A stretch of DNA of 64,000 bases from positions 17,137 through 81,136 of the IMG/VR virus record IMGVR_UViG_3300048582_000084; one strand, 5' to 3'. Below are positions 54,220 through 64,000 of this stretch, one piece after another; the stretch's first letter is position 1; each line of letters begins with the position of its first letter. Origin of the DNA: a virus. A program made the position numbers and the translations under genes. A model generated the notes under the pieces. The model saw only the letters and a program-made list of their open reading frames with translations. It was not told the DNA's origin and made no database searches.

Positions 54220-57200
54220 TCAATCCAATCGGGTAAGCTGCCAGCGGGACTTGTTGGCGTACTTTGTCGCCGGTTCGATTCTGACCTGTACTCGGTCGCC
54301 GTGTTCGTCTTCAATCGTAAAGATGCGGTTCTTCAACTTTACGAGGTACTTACCAAACGAGATTTTCTGCTGGTTCGGAGCCCCCGGTTGGATGGGGAGA
54401 GGAATCTCTTCATCTTCGAAAATGTTGAATAGCCCCTCGCCGTCAGTTCCGCCACCGACAGTGACAGGCTTCGCTGCGTAAGTATCCCACCAAATGGAAA
54501 CAAGCTGCTTGATTGCATTCCCTTCCTCGTCGGAATCGTCGCGGAGTTCTCCGTCGTTGGTCAGGAAGCCGTCGTAGCCGCAGCACTTTAGGATGCCGCC
54601 CATCACGCGAGACCAGGGCTCAAACGAACCCTTAACCGTCTCAGGTTCTGGGCGTCCTTTGGCGATCCAGTTCTGGATCAGAGTCAGGCAGGCCCAAATG
54701 AGTTCTGCGCGATTTGCCCTAACCCATCCTTCAAGGTCTTTGTGCTTGAAGTTTGCCCGAAGCTCGGGGCGCTCCACCTTGGCATCCAATCGGATGCGAA
54801 CGCAGCGGCGCGCGATCTCGTTGGACAACGTAGGGTTATTGCCCGCGAAAATCCAAGTGTGTCGAACCGGAACCCTCACCGTCTTCGTTTCGCCTAGGAG
54901 GCGATCCGTCCACATCGAAGTGGTGACAGCAGACGCGAGAGCCGACGAGTCAACACGATAGTTGATGTTGTCGAGGTAGAAAGTCGGCGCCGCTTCCAGC
55001 AAGACGCTGGTGATGCGCTTTCGGATTTCGTCCTCGGAGCGCGTTTCTGTCTGGGCAACCGCATCTTCGCCAGTAGAAATCAGCGAGTAGATGTTGACCA
55101 GCTTCGACGCGCCAGTTCCCGGAGTCGGCTTCACGATCAGGTAGATGGGTGTCGATCCGCCGCCGATTAGCTGGCGAGCGAACGGCTGGAGGACCATGCA
55201 AAGAGCGTGCGCCCTCTCCGATTGACCGCCGTGGGGACCGTCGAAGGGAAAGTCCACCAGGGCGTTGCCCATGAGTAGGTCGAGCGCCTTTGCTACCTCA
55301 CCTTCGGAAGGGATATCCGAGATAGGTCGGATGGTCAGCCCGTTCGACGGTTCAAAGAACAGTTGGCTGCTCTTGTCGTAACCCGGCGTTGTTGTGATCT
55401 TTCCGTCCGGCCCGAATACCGGAGCCGTCACGATACCGGTTAGAATAGGAAACGGCGGTGAAGGGTTGGCAAGAATGTCGTTGACGACTGAATTAGGCGG
55501 TTCAGTTTCCTTCATCCCCTCCCCCTTCTCGACCATATAACGGGCGACGCGCGCTAGTTCGTAGCGAAGTTCGTTCGGCCCCATCCGCTGGACACGGGGG
55601 TGGTCCTGTTCGTCGTAGGAAATGCGGTTGATGCTTCCTGCGCTGCGGAATATGAATGGGTCTTTGTCGTTGTAAACCTTCAACGCGTTGAGGGCTTTCT
55701 TGACGGACTCAAGGTGGTCTGTCTCGACAAAGATCGTCACACGATCAGTTATTTTTTGCTCTTCTGCTTTTCGGCGCTTGTCGAGTTGCTGAGCCTTCTG
55801 AGTCTTGGCCTTTTCTTTCTCTTCGTCGCGCTCTGCGCGATGGGCTTCCTTCGCCTGTTTCTGGCGAGCTTCCTCAGCCTCCAGCTTCAGACGGCGGAAT
55901 TCCTTGACGTAATTCTTGTAGACGACGTCGAGGGCAGAACGACCCATCGGAATGTGAAGGTCGTCGCGAAGTCGGCGCGCAAGGGCGTTGAGGGACTCAG
56001 CAGCCTTGATGGGAGGCGTATCGGACTCGGCAAGCCAACGCACGTAGGCGTCGGCTGCCGCACCGTTAGTGACGTCGGTTAGCGCAATTTCATCGGCCGG
56101 TTTAGGGTCCTCGATGGCAGGCGCGGGGTCACTGCCCTCCATCTCGATCAGAAACGCATCATCGGTCAGTACGCCCTCGGGCAGCCATTCCTGCGATATC
56201 ATTTCTGCTACGAAGCTGAGACGGTCCCGTCCTGTGCAGGAATCGTGCATACACTTGATGACGAATCCGCCACCGGGGCTCTCGCCCGCGTTGGTGACGA
56301 AGGTGCCACTACCACCGAAGGCGGTGTGCTGCGATTCGAACGGGCACTCGATGTGCCGGATCGAGTCGTGATCCTTCTCCGTCCTCAGGACGTTCGGGGC
56401 GTATTCTTGCAGGGCATCGTGGATGAGGAACCGGTCGGCGTTCTTAGCCGCCCAGGTCTTCAGATACCGGGGAACGTCGCTTTCCGTGTCCGCGCCCATT
56501 GCGGCGGCTGCGTCGAGAAACGCGTTGCGGGACGGGTGGGGCTTCGGTAGCGCAAAGATGTCGATGGCTTTTCCGGGGTGAACAACAGCCTCGTAGAGGG
56601 CGTCTTTCTCCCTACGAGGTAGGTAGAACAACCGTGAGGTGTCCGTGCAGGACTTATCCACCACAATACCCAACCACGAAGCGAGAGACATGTAAGCTGT
56701 CTCCCAAGCCTTCAACGCCTCAGCCTGAAGCTCCCAATCCCAAACGGACCAGGGGCGAGCCAGCACGAAGATCAGCCGGTTCTTATCCATCGCTGGATGC
56801 TCGACAATGATGACCTTGCCACTATCGGAGGTCATCTCTTCAGCTACGATTCTTGCCTGTTCAGCCACTTCTGGTAGATATCGCTTCTTAGCGACAAGGT
56901 ACTCAGAAATGGTTGCGCCCTCATGTGCCCGAGCGTAGGTGATCCAATCGTCATTCTTGACTTCTGTCTGGTCCTTCCCATGTGAATGGGTCGTGTACCG
57001 GATACAGAACACGCCACGTTCGCGAACGATCTGGTCGATCTCCGTCGATGGCATACCGTTGTCTACGTCGATTCCAACGACGAACAGTTTCTCCATTGCC
57101 CGTGCATTACGCACCCCGCCTTTGGCCTGCCCCTGCAAGAAGCAGGCGCCGTCCTTCGGGCCGATTGTGTGTTGCGTCAGGCCCTGGACGAGTTCGCTCA

Positions 57201-57315
57201 GGGTGTAGTCTCTATTCTTCCACTCGCCGGGTTTCGCACTCTTGTTGCTACCCTTAGCGAGAGTCGCCTTCCAGTCAGGCGGAATGTCAGTTAGGTATGG
57301 TGTATTCGTACTCAC
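54220..57315 (-). CDS. Primase/helicase-like replication protein
   Basis: N-terminal DVD/YTTHSH primase-like motifs, CPF..H...C.H.SC Zn site, coiled coil, C-terminal P-loop-like domain (PGTGASK, LDNI, GNN, RRC). Confidence 0.75.
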   Translation of the reverse strand: MSTNTPYLTDIPPDWKATLAKGSNKSAKPGEWKNRDYTLSELVQGLTQHTIGPKDGACFLQGQAKGGVRNARAMEKLFVVGIDVDNGMPSTEIDQIVRERGVFCIRYTTHSHGKDQTEVKNDDWITYARAHEGATISEYLVAKKRYLPEVAEQARIVAEEMTSDSGKVIIVEHPAMDKNRLIFVLARPWSVWDWELQAEALKAWETAYMSLASWLGIVVDKSCTDTSRLFYLPRREKDALYEAVVHPGKAIDIFALPKPHPSRNAFLDAAAAMGADTESDVPRYLKTWAAKNADRFLIHDALQEYAPNVLRTEKDHDSIRHIECPFESQHTAFGGSGTFVTNAGESPGGGFVIKCMHDSCTGRDRLSFVAEMISQEWLPEGVLTDDAFLIEMEGSDPAPAIEDPKPADEIALTDVTNGAAADAYVRWLAESDTPPIKAAESLNALARRLRDDLHIPMGRSALDVVYKNYVKEFRRLKLEAEEARQKQAKEAHRAERDEEKEKAKTQKAQQLDKRRKAEEQKITDRVTIFVETDHLESVKKALNALKVYNDKDPFIFRSAGSINRISYDEQDHPRVQRMGPNELRYELARVARYMVEKGEGMKETEPPNSVVNDILANPSPPFPILTGIVTAPVFGPDGKITTTPGYDKSSQLFFEPSNGLTIRPISDIPSEGEVAKALDLLMGNALVDFPFDGPHGGQSERAHALCMVLQPFARQLIGGGSTPIYLIVKPTPGTGASKLVNIYSLISTGEDAVAQTETRSEDEIRKRITSVLLEAAPTFYLDNINYRVDSSALASAVTTSMWTDRLLGETKTVRVPVRHTWIFAGNNPTLSNEIARRCVRIRLDAKVERPELRANFKHKDLEGWVRANRAELIWACLTLIQNWIAKGRPEPETVKGSFEPWSRVMGGILKCCGYDGFLTNDGELRDDSDEEGNAIKQLVSIWWDTYAAKPVTVGGGTDGEGLFNIFEDEEIPLPIQPGAPNQQKISFGKYLVKLKNRIFTIEDEHGDRVQVRIEPATKYANKSRWQLTRLD

Positions 57316-57378
57316 TCAGTACTCCAAAGTCGAAGTTAGTCGAGGAATTGTCCTCTGATTTTTCAAAAAGGTGGTCAA

Positions 57379-57624
57379 ATGAAGCTGGCTAGAAAAGTCA
57401 TTGAGGCGGTCGAAGAAAGCCGAATCGAGCTATTCTACGCGGATCGTGGCATGACGAATTATTGGAACAAGCGCCGCGATAAAGGCGAACTGCGTTACTT
57501 CACTGGATGGTATTGGTACATTAAGGGGAAGAACGGAAAAGTCGAATCGGATGAGAACGGGCCATTCAAGTCGAGAATGGCCGCGATCAAGGACTGCTTC
57601 CAGCGGATGCAAATGCGAGTATAG
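57379..57624 (+). CDS. Hypothetical protein (divergent orientation)
   Basis: AAGGTGG RBS; GWYW...GPF motif. Confidence 0.6.
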   Translation: MKLARKVIEAVEESRIELFYADRGMTNYWNKRRDKGELRYFTGWYWYIKGKNGKVESDENGPFKSRMAAIKDCFQRMQMRV

Positions 57625-57638
57625 GGGGTTGGTCTGGT

Positions 57639-57723
57639 TGGTGCGGGCGGAGGGATTCGAACCCCCACGGATTTCTCCACTGAAACCTAAATCCAGCGTG
57701 TCTGCCAGTTCCACCACGCCCGC
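57639..57723 (-). tRNA. tRNA-Leu(TAG)
   Basis: CTGGA-TTTAGGT-TTCAG, long variable arm, GGTTCGAATCC, CCA. Confidence 0.92.
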
Positions 57724-57853
57724 AGGGGGTGAGGGCGGCGATGCTAGTTACCTCGGCTACGACCAGCAAGGCGCGTACCTTCTGTGTGTTCGTTCAGGCT
57801 CTACCGCTTACGTCTTCACCGTAAGGTCCTCAAAAAGGAACCCTTCCGGGTTC

Positions 57854-58234
57854 CTAAAAGTCGCAACGAAGGCGCTCAGTAACCTCCGTGAAAGCGCAGA
57901 AGCCTTCACGAATGACAGGCTCAGCACGCCACGGATTGCAGTCGCCGCAGACGAAGATGTCAACGGCAGCCATCTCAAACTCGGGCCATGTGTGGATCGA
58001 AATGTGACTTTCCGCCAGGATCAGAACGCCAGTCACGCCGCTGCCTTCACCGAAGTGATGGAAGTGGCCGCTGAGGATGGTTGCACCTGTCGCGGCGGCG
58101 GCTTGACGCAAGATGTGTTCAACATCTACAGGCGACGCTAGAAGCTCCGGGTCGGCGCGTCGGAGGTCGATCAGTAGGTGCGTGCCGAGATACCGCAACC
58201 CATCACGCCACACGAAAGACGGCGTGTGGTTCAC
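57854..58234 (-). CDS. speD: S-adenosylmethionine decarboxylase proenzyme
   Basis: LGTHLLID, GATIL...HHF..GSGVTGVLILAESHISIHTWPE...AVDIFVCG; GTG start coupled to upstream stop. Confidence 0.93.
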   Translation of the reverse strand: MNHTPSFVWRDGLRYLGTHLLIDLRRADPELLASPVDVEHILRQAAAATGATILSGHFHHFGEGSGVTGVLILAESHISIHTWPEFEMAAVDIFVCGDCNPWRAEPVIREGFCAFTEVTERLRCDF

Positions 58235-58509
58235 CAACGGTCGTAGTCCGTGACGTCGAGCGTCTGACCTGTGTGGGCCTCGCGAACAGTGAGGCTGGAA
58301 CCGATCCCCGAAGTCCGACTGAAGATGAACTCCAGGGTCGGAAACGGTGGGAGCGTCGGGACCGACGTGATGCCGATCAACTGACGTCGGGTGATCAGTT
58401 GGCTGGGGTCGATCTTGTCGAGCCACGCGTCGATCTTGTCTTGCTGTCCTCGGGTCACAAAGAACATTTCAACAAGTCGCTCTGGGATATCATACTCTAC
58501 GGTGGTCAT
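58231..58509 (-). CDS. Hypothetical protein
   Basis: CAGGAG RBS; F..TSGIG...LDVTDYD.W. Confidence 0.6.
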   Translation of the reverse strand: MTTVEYDIPERLVEMFFVTRGQQDKIDAWLDKIDPSQLITRRQLIGITSVPTLPPFPTLEFIFSRTSGIGSSLTVREAHTGQTLDVTDYDRW

Positions 58510-58531
58510 TTTGTCTCCTGAATGTGTAGGT

Positions 58532-58890
58532 AAAACGCCGCCCCGAAGGGCGGCGCTTTGTTGGCTAGCGGACGTTCTGTTGGCACCAGCGCAGAGCATC
58601 CTGACGTGCCGCCCACATTGGGGCGCCATTGCGTCGGACGATTTCCTGCGCGACCTGATCGATGCACCGGGATAGTTGGATATCGCGGCGGTCGTTTTCG
58701 GCCTGAGTCGGCGGGCGCTGCTGGGCAAATACGTCGAATGAGAAAGTGCAGACGAGAAGCGTAGAAAGAATGAGTAGACGCATAGGTGTGTTCCTTCATA
58801 TGTAAGACGGATCAGTCATCCGCAAGTCTACACTATATGAAGGTGAAACGACAGCGCAAGCCAATCAAAACGCCGCCCCGAAGGGCGGCG
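58532..58890. repeat. Identical 24-bp hairpin repeats (58532-58555, 58867-58890) flanking a one-gene cassette
   Basis: AAAACGCCGCCCCGAAGGGCGGCG occurs twice. Confidence 0.85.
58565..58783 (-). CDS. Small secreted protein
   Basis: Signal peptide, two Cys, AAGGA RBS. Confidence 0.55.
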   Translation of the reverse strand: MRLLILSTLLVCTFSFDVFAQQRPPTQAENDRRDIQLSRCIDQVAQEIVRRNGAPMWAARQDALRWCQQNVR

Positions 58891-58895
58891 TGATT

Positions 58896-59846
58896 TCAAA
58901 GCAGGTTATCACCCGCGTGGTTCTTGAAGCGCTCAGCGACACGGACGTAGCCGAGAGTTGTCTGAATCGAGGCATGGCGGGCGTGGTGACTGATTGCCGA
59001 CATGTCCTTTCCAGCAAGCGCTGAGGCGGTGCAGAAGCCTGCCCGCAAGCTGTGCGGACTGATCTTCCCTCCCAGCCCCGCCCGCTCCACCGCTTTCGCG
59101 AGGATGAGGCGAATCGCTTCTTCGCTGAGGGCTTCGCTCCCAACCGAACCGTTCTTCAAGACGCGTCGGAAGACGCTGCCGGAAGAGATGTTGGAAGCCT
59201 GAAGCCACGCAGCGATGGCGCGGACGGGGCACATAAGCTGGTTCTTGGCGTAAGGGATGGACACTTCAGCCCCCTTCCCTTCCTGATCCGTCTTGGATCG
59301 GTCGAGTTTGACGACGACGCCTTCGGAAACGAATTCAAGGTTCTCCACCGAGATCGCAGTGATCTCGGAGCGTCGAAAGGCGCCCGCGAAGCCAATCAAC
59401 AGGATCGCCTTGTCGCGAAGGCCCGAAACATCGAGACCAGTGGTCGAGACCAAGCTGGCCAGATGCTCAGGGAGAATGGCTTCCGCCTTCTCGACCTTGC
59501 GGGTCGAGGATCGGCGGATGCCAGCCATTACTTCGGCCAGGATCGGGTCTTGCCAGTTGAGAACAAGACGGGCGCGGTCGTGAAAGTACTTTACCGCCGA
59601 AAGGTGCGACGTCACCGTCGAAACCGCCTTGCCAGACTTCGCGAGCGAGGCGAGGTACACGGCAACGAACTGGATGCTGCTCGGGAGCGGGCTTGTCCCA
59701 TGCTCCGCGCAGAAAGCCAGGAAGGTCTTCCAGCTTGACGTGTATTGCTTGACGGTTCCGCTGGCGCGGCTGGCGGCGGCGTAATCGAGCGTGTCCTCAA
59801 TCAGCGAGGTGAGCGCTGCCGTGGGGTTGGTGACGGTGAGGGACAT
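58896..59846 (-). CDS. Cre/Xer-like tyrosine recombinase
   Basis: RDKAILLIGFAGAFRRSE, RSKTDQ, HSLRAGF, RH.S......Y; no arm-binding domain. Confidence 0.92.
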   Translation of the reverse strand: MSLTVTNPTAALTSLIEDTLDYAAASRASGTVKQYTSSWKTFLAFCAEHGTSPLPSSIQFVAVYLASLAKSGKAVSTVTSHLSAVKYFHDRARLVLNWQDPILAEVMAGIRRSSTRKVEKAEAILPEHLASLVSTTGLDVSGLRDKAILLIGFAGAFRRSEITAISVENLEFVSEGVVVKLDRSKTDQEGKGAEVSIPYAKNQLMCPVRAIAAWLQASNISSGSVFRRVLKNGSVGSEALSEEAIRLILAKAVERAGLGGKISPHSLRAGFCTASALAGKDMSAISHHARHASIQTTLGYVRVAERFKNHAGDNLL

Positions 59847-59911
59847 CGGTTTTCTCGTCCTTTGGTTGTGAAAATTGCAAAAGACGCATCCCGAAGGATG
59901 CGTCTCTGTAC

Positions 59912-60034
59912 TCACTCGGCGGGCGGCTTGTCTTTCCGACGCTCATCGAATCGCTTCTTCGCGGGAAGCAGCCCGAAGCGCACGACGATGAAGATCACCA
60001 GAACAACCGAGAATACGGCTTCTGCGACCATCAT
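59912..60034 (-). CDS. Small single-TM protein
   Basis: AAGGAGG RBS, ATGA overlap, hydrophobic N-terminus. Confidence 0.45.
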   Translation of the reverse strand: MMVAEAVFSVVLVIFIVVRFGLLPAKKRFDERRKDKPPAE

Positions 60035-60390
60035 GCGGCGACGGCGACCTCCTTACGAGGCTTCGGGCGGTTCGGAGCTTGCGGCTGCTCCACGCGGGGG
60101 CGCCGCTTCACGCCGAGCATCGCCAGGACGGTATCGACAGTCGGTCGGGTCGGGTAGGTAGCCGCGATGACCCACACGGTCGGTTCGGTGATGTGCGGCT
60201 GGCGCAGGAAGTCGGCCCACTCGGCATCCGTGAAGGTCATCATGCGGGTGCCCTCGATGTCGTGGCGATCCATCATGCCCAAGTCGAGCAGGCTCTTGCG
60301 GGTCCAGACGAGCCACGCGCCGTCGAGCTTGCGCTGGACGAGGTCGAAAAGCTGGCCGTTGTTCTGGTTGGAAATAGGATGCGTGTTCAT
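60031..60390 (-). CDS. Hypothetical protein
   Basis: ORF in operon. Confidence 0.55.
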   Translation of the reverse strand: MNTHPISNQNNGQLFDLVQRKLDGAWLVWTRKSLLDLGMMDRHDIEGTRMMTFTDAEWADFLRQPHITEPTVWVIAATYPTRPTVDTVLAMLGVKRRPRVEQPQAPNRPKPRKEVAVAA

Positions 60391-60444
60391 GTGTTCTGTT
60401 CCGTAATTGGAAGGTTGTAGTGCAAAAAGAACCCCGAAGGGTTC

Positions 60445-60645
60445 TTAGGTCGGGTTTACAACCATCACGAACAATAGAAAGTCTGTGATGAACTTCGACA
60501 GAAGAACGACTAAGCCCGTAATGAAGAGGGCGCAAAACCCGCCCACGATGGGTTCTCCGGACGTATCGCGCAAGGATCGATAGAGATAGCAGAACGAAAT
60601 AGCGGCAAACAGGATGGCGGCGATGGCGAGGTTGAGGGTTACCAT
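60445..60645 (-). CDS. Small membrane protein
   Basis: Two TM helices, just downstream of a promoter-like repeat. Confidence 0.5.
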   Translation of the reverse strand: MVTLNLAIAAILFAAISFCYLYRSLRDTSGEPIVGGFCALFITGLVVLLSKFITDFLLFVMVVNPT

Positions 60646-60660
60646 GTGGTGGTAGATACC

Positions 60661-60685
60661 TTCTCTCTAGGAGGGTTGAGTATTC
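60661..60685 (-). promoter_or_regulatory. Candidate phage-RNAP promoter GAATACTCAACCCTCCTAGAGAGAA
   Basis: Identical 25-mer at 43369-43393; variants at 50683-50706 and 27796-27818. Confidence 0.6.
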
Positions 60686-61316
60686 AGGCGTTGATCCAGG
60701 CAGCATCGTGATCGACGTTGCTGTCGAAAATGGCGAACTCGACCTCGACCTTCCCGACGTCGAACGAGAAGTACCGGAGCGCGGATACAGTCGCCTCGAC
60801 ATCATCCTGAAATGACCCTGCCGTGGTCTGGTAGTCTCGGAGAGTCAGCATCATGATGGGGTCTCCCGTAGCGGCTCGCTTGAACACGTTGCGGCTGAGG
60901 TGCGCGTCCATGCTCTCTGCGATGCTCCGCAGTTTCTGAAAACGCCCATCCGGCACAACGACCTGAATGTGGCTTTCGAAATAGCGGTTCTCAGGCATCT
61001 TGGGCCGGTCCAACAACGAAGATGCTGCCGGATGCCAAGGCACGGTCTCGACCTTTGTTCGGACGACGTCGAAGCCAAAAGCCATCATAGCGTGCTGGAG
61101 CAGGTATAGGTGTTGGGGGACGTCCTTGGTCGCCGCCGAAATGCGAGACGACGTCATGACGTCTTCCAGCACGGTGGTCCCTGTTCGGTCCTGAAGATCG
61201 AGGATGATCGGCTTGACGCCCATCTCCACACAGGCCGCTCGGAACGCCTCGATGGATTCCGGCTTTCGGACAGTCAGGTGAATCTCAAAAGGATAGGTAA
61301 CTAGGTCGGGCTGCAA
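60684..61316 (-). CDS. Hypothetical protein (duplicated ferredoxin-like E.H motifs)
   Basis: FEIHLTV / YFESHIQV, VRTKVE, HLSRN. Confidence 0.65.
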   Translation of the reverse strand: MQPDLVTYPFEIHLTVRKPESIEAFRAACVEMGVKPIILDLQDRTGTTVLEDVMTSSRISAATKDVPQHLYLLQHAMMAFGFDVVRTKVETVPWHPAASSLLDRPKMPENRYFESHIQVVVPDGRFQKLRSIAESMDAHLSRNVFKRAATGDPIMMLTLRDYQTTAGSFQDDVEATVSALRYFSFDVGKVEVEFAIFDSNVDHDAAWINA

Positions 61317-61371
61317 GGTTAGGCTCCTGAGTTTGTTTCAAAAAGGGGCCACCTTTCGGTGGTCCCTTACA

Positions 61372-62793
61372 TCAGCCGACCTTGTAGCGGTCGTTCATGA
61401 TGGCGTTCAGCATGATGTCCTCGGGCGTGAAGTTGTCACCATTCAGCAGCGCCTTCAGCAGCGCAGGCGAGTAGCCGCCCACCAGGGCCGTGCCGTCGTC
61501 CCGAATGGTCACCGGGTTGTTGCCCAGGCGAGCGTTCAGGTTCCAGAACACGATCTGCGGCATCGCGTATCCGGCCTTCGCATAGGCCTTGCGGACCATG
61601 TCGAGCGCGGTAGCATTGTCGCATGCCTTATCGAACTCCATATCCGACAGGATCAGGAGCTTGCGCGGCATGTCCTGCGGCGCGACGTTGTTCGCGACGG
61701 CGATTTCCAGAATCTTCCGGAACGCCGCATCGATGTTGGTCGAACCCATGAAGTTGTCATTGATCTTCGCCAGCTTCGCCTTGAGCGACATCGTGTCAGC
61801 AAGCTGCACGACGCGGGTCGAGGACGAGAAGGTGAAGACGAGGTTCTTGAAGGCACCCGTCTGGCGTTCGGCGGTATAGAGGCCGAGCGCCATCGCCGTG
61901 TCGCGGCAAGTGACCGACGACTTGCTTTCCCTTCCGCCGAGAGGGCAGCACATCGAACCGGAGAGGTCGATGAGGGGCAGAATCCCCGCGTCGCTGCCCA
62001 GGTAGTCGGGCAGGGAACGCCACTGCGCCTCGGCCACGACCGTGTCGCCACGGCGATACCCGGAGATGACGTCGTGCGGGAAGATCGCGGACGCGTTCAC
62101 CTTCGCGGTGCCATCGTTCTTGACCAATGCAGCCTTGTAGGCCGCATAGGCCTCGACGGCGCGCTTGTTGAACGCCTTCTGGTAACGCTTCGCCGCGACC
62201 GACGGGACGTGGCTGAAGTTGATGCTGTCCCATTCGCGGGCGCACATCTTCTGCTCGACCGTGTCGGACAGCCCGACGATCAGCTTCCGGTATCCCTTCG
62301 GCGTCAGTCCGAGAGCCTTGCGAAGGGCTTCGGCATCGGCACCCTTGCGGGGCATCCACTTCGCCGCCAGTCGGTCACCGTTGGTGAGCCCCTGGTCGAT
62401 GAAGGCGAACGCGAAGTCTCGGGCGGCGTCGCCGACTGCAAACAGATCGTCCCAACGGCCGACCTCGGGCGTCTTGGTGACGACCAGGGCAGCGTCGTTT
62501 GCGTTGATCTGGGACAGCCAGGACAGCAGGTAGCGGAAGGTCTGACGCTCGCCAGCGCCGCCGCGAATGTCGCGGAGCCAGAGCAGGGTACGCAACGCGT
62601 ACTCGCGGTTCTCCGCATATGCGCGCTGGAAGAGGATGAGGGCCTGGGCCTCCTTGCCACGCATGGCCGGGGCCTGGGCGAAGAAGTCCACGCACGCGCT
62701 GTGCGTCGTGAGGTTGGTGGCGGCACCGTTCGTGGTGCGGCTGAGATTGGAGCCAGCCCCGTTGGAGCGGGCGGCGGCGGATGCAAAGGTCAT
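61372..62793 (-). CDS. DUF2828-type TROVE-like/vWA protein (Ro60-related)
   Basis: T.NGA, RDIRGGAGER, GRWDD, AAKWMPR, VPS.A, QW..L, vWA MIDAS DLSGSM, STN, SDMEFD, P.IVFWN, GYS. Confidence 0.88.
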   Translation of the reverse strand: MTFASAAARSNGAGSNLSRTTNGAATNLTTHSACVDFFAQAPAMRGKEAQALILFQRAYAENREYALRTLLWLRDIRGGAGERQTFRYLLSWLSQINANDAALVVTKTPEVGRWDDLFAVGDAARDFAFAFIDQGLTNGDRLAAKWMPRKGADAEALRKALGLTPKGYRKLIVGLSDTVEQKMCAREWDSINFSHVPSVAAKRYQKAFNKRAVEAYAAYKAALVKNDGTAKVNASAIFPHDVISGYRRGDTVVAEAQWRSLPDYLGSDAGILPLIDLSGSMCCPLGGRESKSSVTCRDTAMALGLYTAERQTGAFKNLVFTFSSSTRVVQLADTMSLKAKLAKINDNFMGSTNIDAAFRKILEIAVANNVAPQDMPRKLLILSDMEFDKACDNATALDMVRKAYAKAGYAMPQIVFWNLNARLGNNPVTIRDDGTALVGGYSPALLKALLNGDNFTPEDIMLNAIMNDRYKVG

Positions 62794-62822
62794 TGGGTTA
62801 AGTCTCCTGAGTGGGTTGGTAG

Positions 62823-62880
62823 CAGGCTGCTCCCTTTGCTTCAGAGTTAAGGTCTGATGGGATGTGTGCTGTGGGCAGCC
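62823..62880 (-). ncRNA. Structured leader RNA of the TROVE/vWA gene (Y-like end stem plus anticodon-arm-like hairpin)
   Basis: GGCTGC-CCACAGCA...TCCC..TCAGA-CCTTAAC-TCTGA..GGGA-GCAGCC-TG. Confidence 0.55.
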
Positions 62881-62907
62881 TTCAAAAAAAGACCCCTTGC
62901 GGGGGTC

Positions 62908-63102
62908 TCAGTCCAAGTATTCTCTATCATCTTCCGGCTCAACCGGAGACGGCGTCTGCCCGGCAGCGCGCTCGATGTCGTCCGCAATCTCGTACAGTCG
63001 AGCGCGGATGTCGTTGCTGCGGTCGTTTGGGCGATGGTCGGGCGCTGGATAGGTGTCGCGAATCCACTGCGCGTGGGCGAGGAGTTGGGCGGTGGTGGGC
63101 AT
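62908..63102 (-). CDS. Hypothetical protein
   Basis: AAGGA RBS; lies between the ncRNA cluster and the TROVE gene. Confidence 0.55.
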   Translation of the reverse strand: MPTTAQLLAHAQWIRDTYPAPDHRPNDRSNDIRARLYEIADDIERAAGQTPSPVEPEDDREYLD

Positions 63103-63159
63103 GGTAAGTCCTTGATGGGGTTCGGTAAAAAAGCCCCCAGGGCCTTACACCAAAGGGCT

Positions 63160-63283
63160 CCGCGCCCCCACCGCCAGCCTTGCGGTTCCTCCGGATTATG
63201 AGTCCGGTGTGCTTTCTATCGTTGACGCGATGTGGCCTAGGCCTGCTGCCTTTCGGCGGGACTGCTTACCCGTCAAAGTAAGC
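63160..63283 (-). ncRNA. Structured RNA with CAU anticodon arm and possible pseudoknot
   Basis: CCGGA-CTCATAA-TCCGG; loop TTGACG complementary to downstream CGTCAA; flanked by terminators. Confidence 0.5.
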
Positions 63284-63326
63284 AAAAACCCATCAGACAT
63301 TTCTGTCATGATGGGTCTGGAAGATC

Positions 63327-63428
63327 GCTCCTAGTGACGCTGGACCTTCAAAGCGGTCCCCCTCTTGTTCGGTCGGGGGCTCTGACTCTCTTGCGAGTAC
63401 CTAGCCCCGTTATCGCGCGATTCGGAGC
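63327..63428 (-). ncRNA. Putative multi-stem ncRNA
   Basis: GCTCC/GGAGC closing stem, GGGGCT/AGCCCC and GGACC/GGTCC hairpins; between terminators. Confidence 0.4.
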
Positions 63429-63467
63429 AAAACGGGAGCCCTGGGGCTCCCGTACTATTACTACGCA

Positions 63468-63652
63468 TGCTGTTGGCCGGTTTCGATACCGACTTAGGAT
63501 TTACGAACCTGTTTTGTGGGTTTGCCGACACCGGACAGTCGTCTTCTAAGTTCTTGCGAACAAGGTAGCCACCACATTTTACTCAGCGATGTCTTGACCA
63601 TCTAGGGATTCGGGCATCGCCTTGCTGCGTGTCCTTCCACGCCGCAACAGCA
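63468..63652 (-). ncRNA. Putative multi-stem ncRNA
   Basis: TGCTGTTG/CAACAGCA closing stem enclosing several hairpins; followed by terminator. Confidence 0.4.
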
Positions 63653-63674
63653 GAAACGTCCCTTTCGGGACGTT

Positions 63675-63787
63675 CAGGATACGCATTTTTACGCGTGCTT
63701 CTACTGCACCACCGCCGCGCATGTGCGGCGACCAGGGATTGCACCTGGGTCTCGCCCTCCAAATGGTTATAGTTGCTGTAGGTATCC
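63675..63787 (-). ncRNA. Y RNA (YrlA)-like circularly permuted tRNA mimic
   Basis: GGATAC/GTATCC end stem enclosing T-arm, closed acceptor stem and D-arm in permuted order. Confidence 0.7.
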
Positions 63788-63820
63788 AAAAAGAGCCCGA
63801 AGGCTCTTAGCTCTTAGTTG

Positions 63821-64000
63821 TCAGAAACGCTCCATGTACGAGACGTCCTCGACTCGAACCCAGAATCCATCAGTGTAGAAAGTCACCGAATGCGCGAACA
63901 TGGAAGCGAAGGAGTTCCAAGCCTGTTCCGCAGTCGCGTCGTCAGTCGCTGAGAGGTCGAGTTCCTTGATAAGCCCGCTCTTGAAGAAGAAACGGACGGA
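63821..64000 (-). CDS. Hypothetical protein, 5' end outside window
   Basis: Open frame ending ...VEDVSYMERF* before a terminator. Confidence 0.45.
   Translation of the reverse strand, partial: SVRFFFKSGLIKELDLSATDDATAEQAWNSFASMFAHSVTFYTDGFWVRVEDVSYMERF

What the first reader, a model, noticed from the sequence alone, without database searches (positions are those of the whole stretch)
62823..62880. Second copy of the Y-like end stem in the TROVE gene's own leader, topped by an anticodon-arm-like hairpin
GGCTGC-CCACAGCA...GCAGCC-TG mirrors GGATAC-CTACAGCA...GTATCC-TG with compensatory changes at two stem positions (C-G vs A-T, G-C vs A-T), while ACAGCA and the trailing TG are conserved. It encloses TCCC/GGGA and TCAGA[CCTTAAC]TCTGA, a 5-bp stem with 7-nt loop resembling a tRNA-Lys-type anticodon arm. 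It lies ~15 nt upstream of the CAGGAG RBS. Inference: either autogenous control of the TROVE protein via a mimic of its RNA ligand, or a minimal Y-like RNA.
Basis: partly seen in the sequence, partly recalled or inferred. Interest (0 to 1): 0.78.

Follow-up and report, generated by a model that had tools for sequence, protein, structure and literature searches.

The report
Partner-RNA look-alike in Ro60-like gene leader
The messenger RNA of a phage gene for a Ro60-like ring protein begins with a small hairpin that copies the conserved "handle" of the small RNAs encoded beside it, an arrangement kept in many unrelated phages that may let the protein limit its own production.

Summary
On the minus strand, 62823-62881 is a 7-bp closing stem, a 2-nt linker, ACAGCA, an inner 5-bp/7-nt-loop hairpin and a trailing G. 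It lies between a terminator and the RBS of a DUF2828/DUF7788 gene.

The protein model matches Ro60 structures over its full length. A covariance model built only from other phages finds exactly two sites in the 64-kb window: this leader and the long tRNA-like RNA 900 nt upstream. The stem is 99% paired, and all 7 pairs show double changes across 55 distinct sequences.

A handle hairpin ends within 45 nt of the start codon in 32 of 48 distinct homologue upstream regions, against 12 of 226 control ORF starts. The closest relative (71% protein identity) keeps the inner hairpin, with one compensatory flip and an identical loop.

The "tRNA-Lys" reading and the TCCC/GGGA pairing are not supported. 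Autoregulation is inferred, not shown. The main rival is a co-transcribed small RNA that is cut off.

This scan has met the RNA family before on other DNA: 42 notes in at least 38 genomes. I found no Rfam family or paper describing it.

The parts
62823..62881 (-). Whole leader element: a handle hairpin made of a 7-bp closing stem, linker, ACAGCA, inner hairpin, A/G-rich tract, 3' arm and trailing G
   Evidence: Sequence. Leave-out model R3 scores it 24.7 bits, E 0.0024. R2 scores it 29.7 bits.
62875..62881 (-). 5' arm of the closing stem (AGGCUGC)
   Evidence: It pairs with 62824-62830. The family stem is 99.0% paired, and 7 of 7 pairs show double changes.
62867..62872 (-). Conserved single-stranded handle ACAGCA, preceded by the 2-nt linker at 62873-62874
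   Evidence: It is invariant in alignments A1 and A2. The handle is ACAGCAA in 43 of the 57 model hits. The 10 letters ACAGCACACA are identical in L064.
62841..62857 (-). Inner hairpin: 5-bp stem with the 7-nt loop CCUUAAC (62846-62852)
   Evidence: It is in the minimum-energy fold. L064 keeps it with one compensatory flip (A-U to U-A) and an identical loop. Inner hairpins are not general in the family.
62833..62839 (-). GCAAAGG tract on the 3' side of the internal loop
   Evidence: It is identical in L064. Relatives have an A-rich tract at this place.
62823..62830 (-). 3' arm of the closing stem (GCAGCCU) plus the conserved trailing G
   Evidence: The CUG end is conserved in the model consensus.
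62804..62822 (-). C/A-rich spacer (62809-62822) and the Shine-Dalgarno AGGAG (62804-62808)
   Evidence: Sequence. A similar C/A-rich spacer is present in L064.
61372..62793 (-). Gene for a 473-aa DUF2828/DUF7788 protein with a Ro60-like fold (helical ring plus vWA domain with a MIDAS motif)
   Evidence: Pfam. PHROG 850, 'RNA-binding protein'. D276, S278 and S280 are invariant. AlphaFold2 model with pLDDT 80.5. The top 12 Foldseek PDB hits are all Ro60/TROVE.
62884..62909 (-). Intrinsic-terminator-like hairpin and U-run immediately 5' of the element, after the 64-aa ORF at 62908-63102
   Evidence: L064 has a terminator of different sequence at the same place.
63672..63791 (-). Long tRNA-like handle RNA ('copy 1') with the same end stem and the handle ACAGCAA
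   Evidence: It is hit by R2 (E 0.023) and by R3 (E 0.049), although it was in neither training set. Fold.

Best explanation
The element is a minimal member of a phage family of 'handle' RNAs: a 7-bp clamp helix, 1-3 unpaired bases and a single-stranded ACAGCA(A). It is built into the 5' untranslated leader of the gene for the Ro60-like DUF2828 protein.

Shown:
- It belongs to the family.
- It lies on the coding strand between a terminator and the RBS.
- The same placement recurs in many distant phages.
- In relatives, consensus promoters start the transcript at the foot of the stem.

Inferred:
- The protein binds this handle as it binds the free handle RNAs, by analogy with Ro60 and the Y RNA stem.
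- The helix is weak on its own, so it forms stably only when clamped by the protein.
- A roughly 53-kDa ring held 13-16 nt (here 30 nt) upstream of the start codon hinders 30S loading.

Surplus protein would therefore repress its own translation, and free handle RNAs would relieve this by competition. That would match protein output to the supply of partner RNA.
For: Family membership: leave-out model R3 hits only this site and the long RNA in the 64-kb window.

Real RNA helix:
- 99.0% of 385 cells are paired, against 33-45% in the slid controls.
- All 7 pairs show double changes.
- The covariation score is 0.894, against 0.251 shuffled, with 0 of 500 shuffles as high.
- The earlier set gave 98.3% paired.

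Strand bias: 57 of 57 hits at E<=0.01 lie on the gene's strand.

Position:
- 32 of 48 distinct upstream regions have a hairpin ending within 45 nt of the start, against 12 of 226 control ORF starts. Fisher p is 3.6e-20.
- In 23 of those 32 the stem ends 10-15 nt before the start codon.
- In DLP_6 the trailing G is the first G of GGAG.

The element is part of the mRNA. Promoters matching 11 of 12 consensus letters end 6-11 nt before the stem in L012, L002 and L001. There is no room for a promoter between the stem and the RBS.

The arrangement sits in several deep branches of the protein tree: 9 changes by parsimony, at least 6 forced by well-supported branches (quick tree).

Link between protein and RNA:
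- 19 hits (E<=1) in 5 whole phage records that carry the gene, 1.07 Mb in all.
- 1 weak hit (E 0.23) in 5 records without it, 1.20 Mb in all.

Ro60 fold.

The helix is marginal without help: the closing stem appears in the minimum-energy fold of only 4 of 8 relatives' leaders, and not in the window's 121-nt context.
Against: - No binding, expression or 5'-end data exist. No sequencing run was listed.
- Free short hairpins of the same size and make-up stand elsewhere, not before ORFs, and inside tRNA clusters. The leader copy could simply be the last unit of an array.
- In LAh_8 the spacing between units (3-12 nt) is like the spacing to the SD. Closeness may therefore reflect compaction.
- In this window and in L064 the stem ends 30-31 nt before the start codon, not 13-16.
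- 16 of the 48 regions lack a proximal copy, as do 9 of 13 named phages (Felix O1-like SUSP1, Lumos, Listeria, Bacillus, Enterococcus, Staphylococcus and others).
- No promoter was found in the window, and a terminator sits directly upstream.
- The alignments used for covariation were fitted to the model.
Confidence: 0.4

Rival explanations
1. It is a co-transcribed small handle RNA, not an operator. The hairpin would be one more partner RNA of the Ro60-like protein, made on the same transcript as the mRNA and then cut off by RNase P, RNase Z, RNase E or similar enzymes. Its place before the gene would serve only joint expression and genome compaction.
For: - Free copies of the same length and make-up exist (leaders 39-85 nt, free copies 54-127 nt).
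- In DLP_6 the free copies sit directly after tRNA 3' ends in the tRNA cluster.
- LAh_8 has five tandem units, the last of which is the leader.
- In L015-L017 the unit next to the RBS is a long tRNA-like form.
- The 7-bp stem with a 2-nt linker and a trailing base has acceptor-stem-like dimensions (my reading of the sequences).
- Chen et al. report RNase P cleavage of a YrlA (PMC4201824, passages read).
Against: - Nothing marks a cleavage site between the stem and the SD.
- Cutting there would leave a 5' leader of only about 13 nt.
- In L001, L002, L012 and phiM12 a promoter serves this single unit plus the gene.
- The placement is kept over deep protein divergence, while the number and place of the other copies vary freely.
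- This reading and autoregulation do not exclude each other.
Confidence: 0.3
2. It is a 5' stabiliser or processing signal that works without the phage protein. A 5'-terminal hairpin would protect the mRNA from RNase E or 5'-end-dependent decay, or a host factor would recognise the handle.
For: Predicted transcript starts lie 0-5 nt before the stem in L012, L002 and L001. From general knowledge of E. coli mRNA decay, not from a call here, 5'-terminal stem-loops are known mRNA stabilisers.
Against: - The helix is thermodynamically weak.
- A plain stabiliser would not need the invariant unpaired ACAGCA and the CUG end that it shares with free RNAs.
- The motif follows the DUF2828 gene and not other genes: 12 of 226 control starts, mostly with loops over 100 nt.
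- It is nearly absent from phages without the gene.
Confidence: 0.1
3. It is a DNA-level inverted repeat, that is, an operator for a transcription factor, or a chance resemblance.
For: The two arms form an inverted repeat in DNA. Within the window the match to copy 1 rests on about 14 letters.
Against: - The arm sequences differ freely between phages while staying complementary, and G-U pairs occur. That fits RNA, not a protein-read DNA site.
- The conserved letters are asymmetric: ACAGCA on one side only.
- 57 of 57 hits lie on the sense strand.
- The leave-out model gives E 0.0024.
Confidence: 0.04

Closest known systems
Ro60/Rsr with Y RNAs, especially bacterial and phage YrlA (Rfam RF02553; Chen et al. 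2014, PMC4201824, passages read)
   Same: - A ring-shaped protein with a vWA/MIDAS domain (fold match).
- Small RNAs encoded next to the gene and closed by a stem formed from their 5' and 3' ends, with a conserved motif on the 5' strand just inside the stem.
- Long members carry tRNA-like T and D arms. YrlA hits below threshold fall on those cores in L064 and phiM12.
   Different: - The protein is not recognised by the Pfam TROVE model and has only 11-18% identity to solved Ro60 structures.
- The handle is ACAGCA(A), not GNCGAAN0-1G or GGUCCGA.
- No YrlA or Y_RNA hit falls on the element.
- In the passages I read, a copy inside the protein's own mRNA leader is not described for Ro60.
Thermus phage phiLo Ro60 with Yrl1/Yrl2 (PMC12135203, passages read; PDB 9KOP, 9L5Y)
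   Same: It is a phage-encoded Ro60-fold protein and the best structural match to the model (TM about 0.6). Its two Y-like RNAs are encoded just upstream of the gene.
   Different: The phiLo RNAs were picked by the CGAA motif and are treated as separate RNAs. The terms 'autoregulat' and 'untranslated' do not occur in that paper.
Translational operators that mimic the regulator's main RNA ligand: the E. coli thrS operator, ribosomal-protein leaders, and the T4 gene 32, gene 43 and regA systems (recalled from general knowledge, not from a call)
   Same: A structure in the regulator's own 5' leader copies the recognition features of its normal RNA partner and sits beside the RBS, so that surplus protein competes with the ribosome.
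   Different: Here neither binding nor repression has been shown. The protein family and the RNA motif are unrelated to those systems.
Bas63 gp130, a Ro60-like protein of a Felix O1-type coliphage reported to counter the Ppl defence (preprint 10.1101/2024.10.10.617714, passages read)
   Same: A Ro60-like phage protein encoded directly upstream of the phage tRNA genes, as in SUSP1. The authors guess that some 'tRNA' genes are Y RNAs.
   Different: I did not verify by sequence that gp130 is the DUF2828 homologue. The related phage SUSP1 has no handle hairpin in the leader; its four copies lie downstream among the tRNA genes.

Membership tests
ACAGCA(A)-handle hairpin RNAs next to DUF2828 genes (family defined in this scan; no Rfam entry) | A 7-bp closing stem that covaries, with A-U and G-C at its foot and CUG at its 3' end | tested here: met
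   In the window, 62875-62881 pairs with 62824-62830, followed by G 62823.
ACAGCA(A)-handle hairpin RNAs next to DUF2828 genes (family defined in this scan; no Rfam entry) | A 1-3-nt linker followed by an unpaired ACAGCA(A) on the 5' side | tested here: met
   CC followed by ACAGCA at 62867-62874. The seventh letter is C here, in L064 and in the DLP_6 leader, against A in most members.
ACAGCA(A)-handle hairpin RNAs next to DUF2828 genes (family defined in this scan; no Rfam entry) | Detected by a covariance model that was not trained on it | tested here: met
   R3, built without the window and L064: 24.7 bits, E 0.0024. It is one of only two hits in the window up to E = 10.
ACAGCA(A)-handle hairpin RNAs next to DUF2828 genes (family defined in this scan; no Rfam entry) | Lies on the same strand as a DUF2828/DUF7788 gene and close to it | tested here: met
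   It ends 30 nt upstream of the gene's ATG. 57 of 57 family hits lie on the gene's strand.
Ro60-Y RNA system / YrlA (RF02553) | A partner protein with a TROVE ring plus a vWA domain | tested here: inconclusive
   The fold is met: the top 12 PDB matches are all Ro60/TROVE and the MIDAS motif DxSxS is invariant. The sequence family is not met: Pfam gives DUF2828 and DUF7788, with vWA_Ro60 below its cut-off. The TROVE model finds nothing in the DLP_6 record.
Ro60-Y RNA system / YrlA (RF02553) | The conserved Ro-binding motif GNCGAAN0-1G (bacteria) or GGUCCGA (animals) near the 5' end | tested here: not met
   The motif is taken from PMC4201824. The element has ACAGCAC at that place.
Ro60-Y RNA system / YrlA (RF02553) | Reaches the Rfam gathering score | tested here: not met
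   No YrlA or Y_RNA hit at E<=10 in 55000-64000.
Ro60-Y RNA system / YrlA (RF02553) | The RNA is bound by the protein | not testable with these tools
   This needs a gel shift or an immunoprecipitation.
Autogenous translational operator by ligand mimicry | Lies in the 5' leader of the regulator's own mRNA | tested here: met
   By position in the window. Promoters lie just before the stem in L012, L002 and L001. No promoter was found in the window itself.
Autogenous translational operator by ligand mimicry | Shares the recognition features of the free RNA ligand | tested here: met
   The same model hits both the leader and the long RNA. That these RNAs are the protein's ligand is inferred from co-occurrence.
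Autogenous translational operator by ligand mimicry | Overlaps or abuts the ribosome-binding site | tested here: inconclusive
   It is met in most relatives, where 23 of 32 stems end 10-15 nt before the start codon. In the window the gap is 14 nt to the SD and 30 nt to the ATG.
Autogenous translational operator by ligand mimicry | Protein-dependent repression | not testable with these tools
   This needs reporter and toeprint assays.
tRNA or tRNA-like anticodon arm | A 5-bp stem with a 7-nt loop that has U at position 2 and a purine at position 6 | tested here: not met
   The stem and loop sizes fit, but the loop CCUUAAC has C at position 2. ARAGORN and Rfam tRNA find nothing here. Some relatives do show the pattern, such as the LAh_8 and L031 leaders.

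The most novel reading that the evidence does not exclude
This would be the first feedback circuit in the Ro60/Y-RNA world. A phage Ro60-like protein would gauge the supply of its own partner RNAs by competing them against a decoy handle at the start of its own mRNA. The circuit would belong to a large, uncatalogued second branch of Ro/Y-type particles carried by hundreds of phages, including laboratory ones. In that branch the handle would be a portable tag that puts any attached RNA, even an mRNA, under the protein's hold.
Probability: 0.35. Interest if true: 0.8.

Novelty: new variant of a known kind. Interest (0 to 1): 0.62.

Why it matters
Ro60 and its Y RNAs are conserved from bacteria to humans, yet how the amounts of protein and RNA are matched is not known. 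Here the recognition module of the partner RNAs is written into the protein's own mRNA leader, and it is kept there across distant phages. That gives a simple, directly testable model for such matching.

It also supplies a minimal (about 40-60 nt), well-defined candidate binding site for a protein family (DUF2828/DUF7788, PHROG 850) found in 710 phage records. These include Felix O1-type, Listeria, Staphylococcus, Campylobacter and mycobacterial phages. A preprint links a Ro60-like protein of a Felix O1-type phage to counter-defence.

The handle model can also correct annotation. One example is the LAh_8 gene start, which as annotated reads through two RNAs.

Tried and rejected
- **Folding energy as evidence.** It is weak, so I relied on comparison instead.
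- **Rfam.** Nothing falls on the element in the window. Nothing falls on the handle hairpins of nine related loci. The only hits there are tRNAs, a partial ROOL and sub-threshold YrlA cores.
- **A sigma-70 promoter in the window.** None was found in 62700-64000.
- **An anti-SD role for the inner loop.** The L064 loop is complementary to its own SD region, but the window's is not (read). Rejected as not conserved.
- **Leader copies as stripped-down versions.** Only a slight length difference was found, so this does not discriminate.
- **A sub-optimal seventh handle letter in leaders.** C or U is seen in the window, L064, DLP_6 and L001, but 16 of 20 model-detected leaders have A. Not general.
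- **Inner hairpin as a family feature.** Over 50 interiors the median z is -0.5. It is not supported in general, only in the window/L064 pair.
- **Expression data.** No run was listed, and none was listed as RNA.
- **PDB by sequence.** No hit at E<=1.
- **Literature.** I ran six searches: DUF2828 (5 unrelated papers); YrlA+Rsr+bacteriophage; Ro60+phage+Y RNA; Ro-like+mycobacteriophage; TROVE+bacteriophage+tRNA-like; Ro60+autoregulation. None of the listings or passages I read describes the ACAGCA handle or a leader copy.
- **Papers I could not see.** The supplementary tables of Chen et al. 2014 list the phage YrlA candidates, and I could not see them. They may include DUF2828 phages. The review PMC10870794 is not held.
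- **Rows dropped before the 32-of-48 count.** I then dropped loci with no start codon found or fewer than 150 nt upstream, and loci with identical 150-nt upstream regions.
- **Possible miscalls in that count.** The script missed leaders that the model finds in L094 and L100, and some start codons may be mis-picked.
- **The tree.** The tree is the quick tree; the careful search did not finish.

Full report
**What is there.** All features lie on the minus strand, in this order:
- A 64-aa ORF at 62908-63102.
- A terminator-like hairpin with a U-run at 62884-62909.
- The element at 62823-62881.
- A C/A-rich spacer, then AGGAG at 62804-62808.
- The ATG at 62793-62791 of a 473-aa ORF (61372-62793).

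The element itself has these parts:
- A 7-bp closing stem, 62875-62881 paired with 62824-62830.
- A 2-nt linker.
- ACAGCA at 62867-62872.
- An inner 5-bp hairpin with the loop CCUUAAC, at 62841-62857.
- A GCAAAGG tract.
- A trailing G at 62823.

**The protein.** Pfam gives DUF7788 (E 2e-42) and DUF2828 (E 8e-25). vWA_Ro60 scores below its cut-off. PHROGs gives family 850, 'RNA-binding protein'. The MIDAS residues D276, S278 and S280 are invariant in 18 homologues.

An AlphaFold2 model (pLDDT 80.5, pTM 0.76) has Ro60/TROVE chains as its 12 best PDB matches over the full length. The best are the Thermus phage phiLo Ro60 entries (TM about 0.6, 17-18% identity). Sequence search of the PDB finds nothing. 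The protein therefore has a Ro60 fold but lies outside the TROVE sequence family.

By tblastn, homologues occur in 710 phage records.

**Is the hairpin more than chance?** Energy alone says little. The 58-mer has z -1.93. The closing stem is lost in a 121-nt context. It appears in the minimum-energy fold of 4 of 8 relatives' leaders.

Comparison says much more. In 47 IMG/VR loci that encode homologues, the 160 nt before the start codon mostly show the same design. There is a stem of varying sequence, then 1-3 bases, then ACAGCA(A), a variable interior, the complementary arm ending in CU, a G, and then the RBS.

A covariance model built from 12 leaders (R1) found 50 matches at E<=10, 48 of them on the gene's strand. 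A model rebuilt from 32 matches (R2) hit only two places in the window: the leader, and the long RNA, which was not in its training set.

A third model was built from 57 matches in 39 other loci, without the window or its closest relative (R3). Up to E = 10 it again hits only 62820-62883 (24.7 bits, E 0.0024) and 63672-63790 (E 0.049).

On the 55 distinct sequences of that set:
- The stem is 99.0% paired, against 33.5-44.9% when the partner column is slid by 1-3 positions.
- All 7 pairs show changes on both sides.
- The covariation score is 0.894, against 0.251 in shuffles, with 0 of 500 shuffles as high.

These alignments were fitted to the model, which favours pairing. However, the independent script found the same arms by plain complementarity.

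**The closest relative.** L064 is a metagenome contig whose protein is 71% identical over residues 2-470. It has the same order: a terminator of different sequence, a closing stem with compensated changes, and the same 10 letters ACAGCACACA. It also has the inner hairpin with one flipped pair and the identical loop CCUUAAC, the same GCAAAGG tract, a C/A-rich spacer, an RBS and a start codon.

This supports the inner hairpin in this lineage. It does not support the TCCC/GGGA pairing.

**Is the leader position special?** A script examined 48 distinct upstream regions. A hairpin ends within 45 nt of the start codon in 32 of them. The same finder scored 12 of 226 other ORF starts in the same loci, mostly with loops over 100 nt, and 9 of 129 in the window, the true one included. 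Fisher p is 3.6e-20.

In 23 of the 32, the stem ends 10-15 nt before the start codon. In the window and L064 the gap is 30-31 nt.

Promoters matching 11 of 12 consensus letters end 6-11 nt before the stem in L012, L002 and L001. A similar one can be read by eye in phiM12. In those phages the transcript therefore begins with the hairpin.

Of 13 named phages examined:
- Four have the leader arrangement: DLP_6, phiM12, LAh_8 and Campylobacter F348.
- ValKK3 has a weak variant.
- The other eight do not have it. Six of them carry handle hairpins elsewhere: upstream behind a promoter or terminator, or downstream among tRNA genes (SUSP1, Lumos, Listeria LP-083-2, Bacillus MrDarsey, Enterococcus Bill, Staphylococcus PG-2021_88). 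phiAS5 and fENko-Kae01 gave no hit.

On a quick protein tree the leader arrangement needs 9 changes, at least 6 of them forced by well-supported branches. It is therefore either old with losses or gained repeatedly.

**Link to the gene.** Five whole phage records that carry the gene (1.07 Mb) give 19 R2 hits at E<=1. I confirmed the gene's presence in three of them. Five records without it (T4, T5, SPO1, phiKZ and G; 1.20 Mb) give one weak hit. Phage G has a weak TROVE-model match and no handle hit. This suggests that the handle goes with the DUF2828 branch and not with canonical Ro60.

**What argues against an operator.** Short free hairpins of the same build exist, not followed by ORFs. In DLP_6 they sit directly after tRNA 3' ends. 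LAh_8 has five units in tandem, spaced as tightly as the last one is from the SD. In L015-L017 the unit before the RBS is a long tRNA-like form. A co-transcribed partner RNA that is later cut off is therefore a serious rival, and the two readings can both be true.

No expression data were available. The window has no recognisable promoter, and a terminator stands directly upstream.

**Comparison with the known.** YrlA and animal Y RNAs carry GNCGAAN0-1G or GGUCCGA at the corresponding place (PMC4201824, passages). The phiLo Yrl RNAs were found through CGAA (PMC12135203, passages). Rfam has nothing on the handle.

The element works like a Y-RNA end stem but fails the membership tests for YrlA. 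As a possible operator it resembles ligand-mimic operators such as thrS; that comparison is recalled from general knowledge.

**Novelty.** This scan has noted the RNA family before on other DNA: 42 notes in at least 38 genomes, some mentioning a leader copy.

In the six literature searches listed under Tried and rejected I found no description of the handle or of a leader copy.

**Verdict.** My confidence in feedback on translation is about 0.4.

Noticed in passing
L056 (Aeromonas phage LAh_8, NC_048775.1) 1090-1470: Five handle hairpins stand in tandem. The annotated start of the DUF2828 CDS (L056:1363) reads through two of them. The ATG at L056:1468, preceded by AAAGGAG, fits the homologues' N-terminus better.
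   Followed up: partly
L061 (Listeria phage LP-083-2) 1-478: A partial ROOL RNA match lies upstream of the tRNA/handle-RNA/DUF2828 region. It scores 83.7 bits, below the gathering score of 99.1, and is cut by the locus end.
   Followed up: no
L064:1005-1060 and L053 (phiM12):562-626: Sub-threshold YrlA (RF02553) hits cover only model positions 23-85, the tRNA-like core. The long handle RNAs therefore share the YrlA body but not its end stem.
   Followed up: partly
L057 (Klebsiella phage fENko-Kae01) about 60 nt before the start at 1441: The leader has a 7-bp hairpin framed by AG...CUG that abuts the SD, but no ACAGCA. It may be a degenerate or alternative handle.
   Followed up: no
L056:1401-1458, L031:2893-2956, L008:2352-2410, L007:2595-2652 and others: Many short family members carry an inner hairpin whose 7-nt loop has the anticodon-loop pattern (U at position 2, purine at position 6), for example CUCAUAA in the LAh_8 leader. 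As a class these interiors do not fold better than shuffles (median z -0.5).
   Followed up: partly
window 62884-62890 and 63788-63792 (minus strand); L064 1393-1397; AT-rich loci: Every unit is directly preceded by a U-run. In the window and L064 it is the tail of a terminator-like hairpin; in AT-rich phages it is UUU. It may be part of the RNA or a processing site.
   Followed up: no
window 62797-62802 (minus strand) and L064 about 1478-1484: The letters CUUAAC of the inner loop recur between the SD and the AUG in the window. In L064 the loop is instead complementary to the SD region (UUAAGG). The two cases are not consistent with each other.
   Followed up: partly
L054 (Stenotrophomonas phage DLP_6, KU682439.2 103870-111761): Four handle RNAs lie inside the phage tRNA cluster, three of them directly after tRNA 3' ends. 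One overlaps an annotated 'hypothetical protein' CDS (103728-103940).
   Followed up: partly
window 60684-61316 (minus strand): The gene just downstream of the DUF2828 gene matches PHROG 1247, a MazG-like pyrophosphatase (E 4e-20), and PHROG 25995.
   Followed up: no
window 57639-59915: A tRNA-Leu(UAG) gene lies next to a tyrosine-integrase gene (58896-59915, minus strand) in a record that IMG/VR treats as a virus fragment. The window's end is the contig's end.
   Followed up: no
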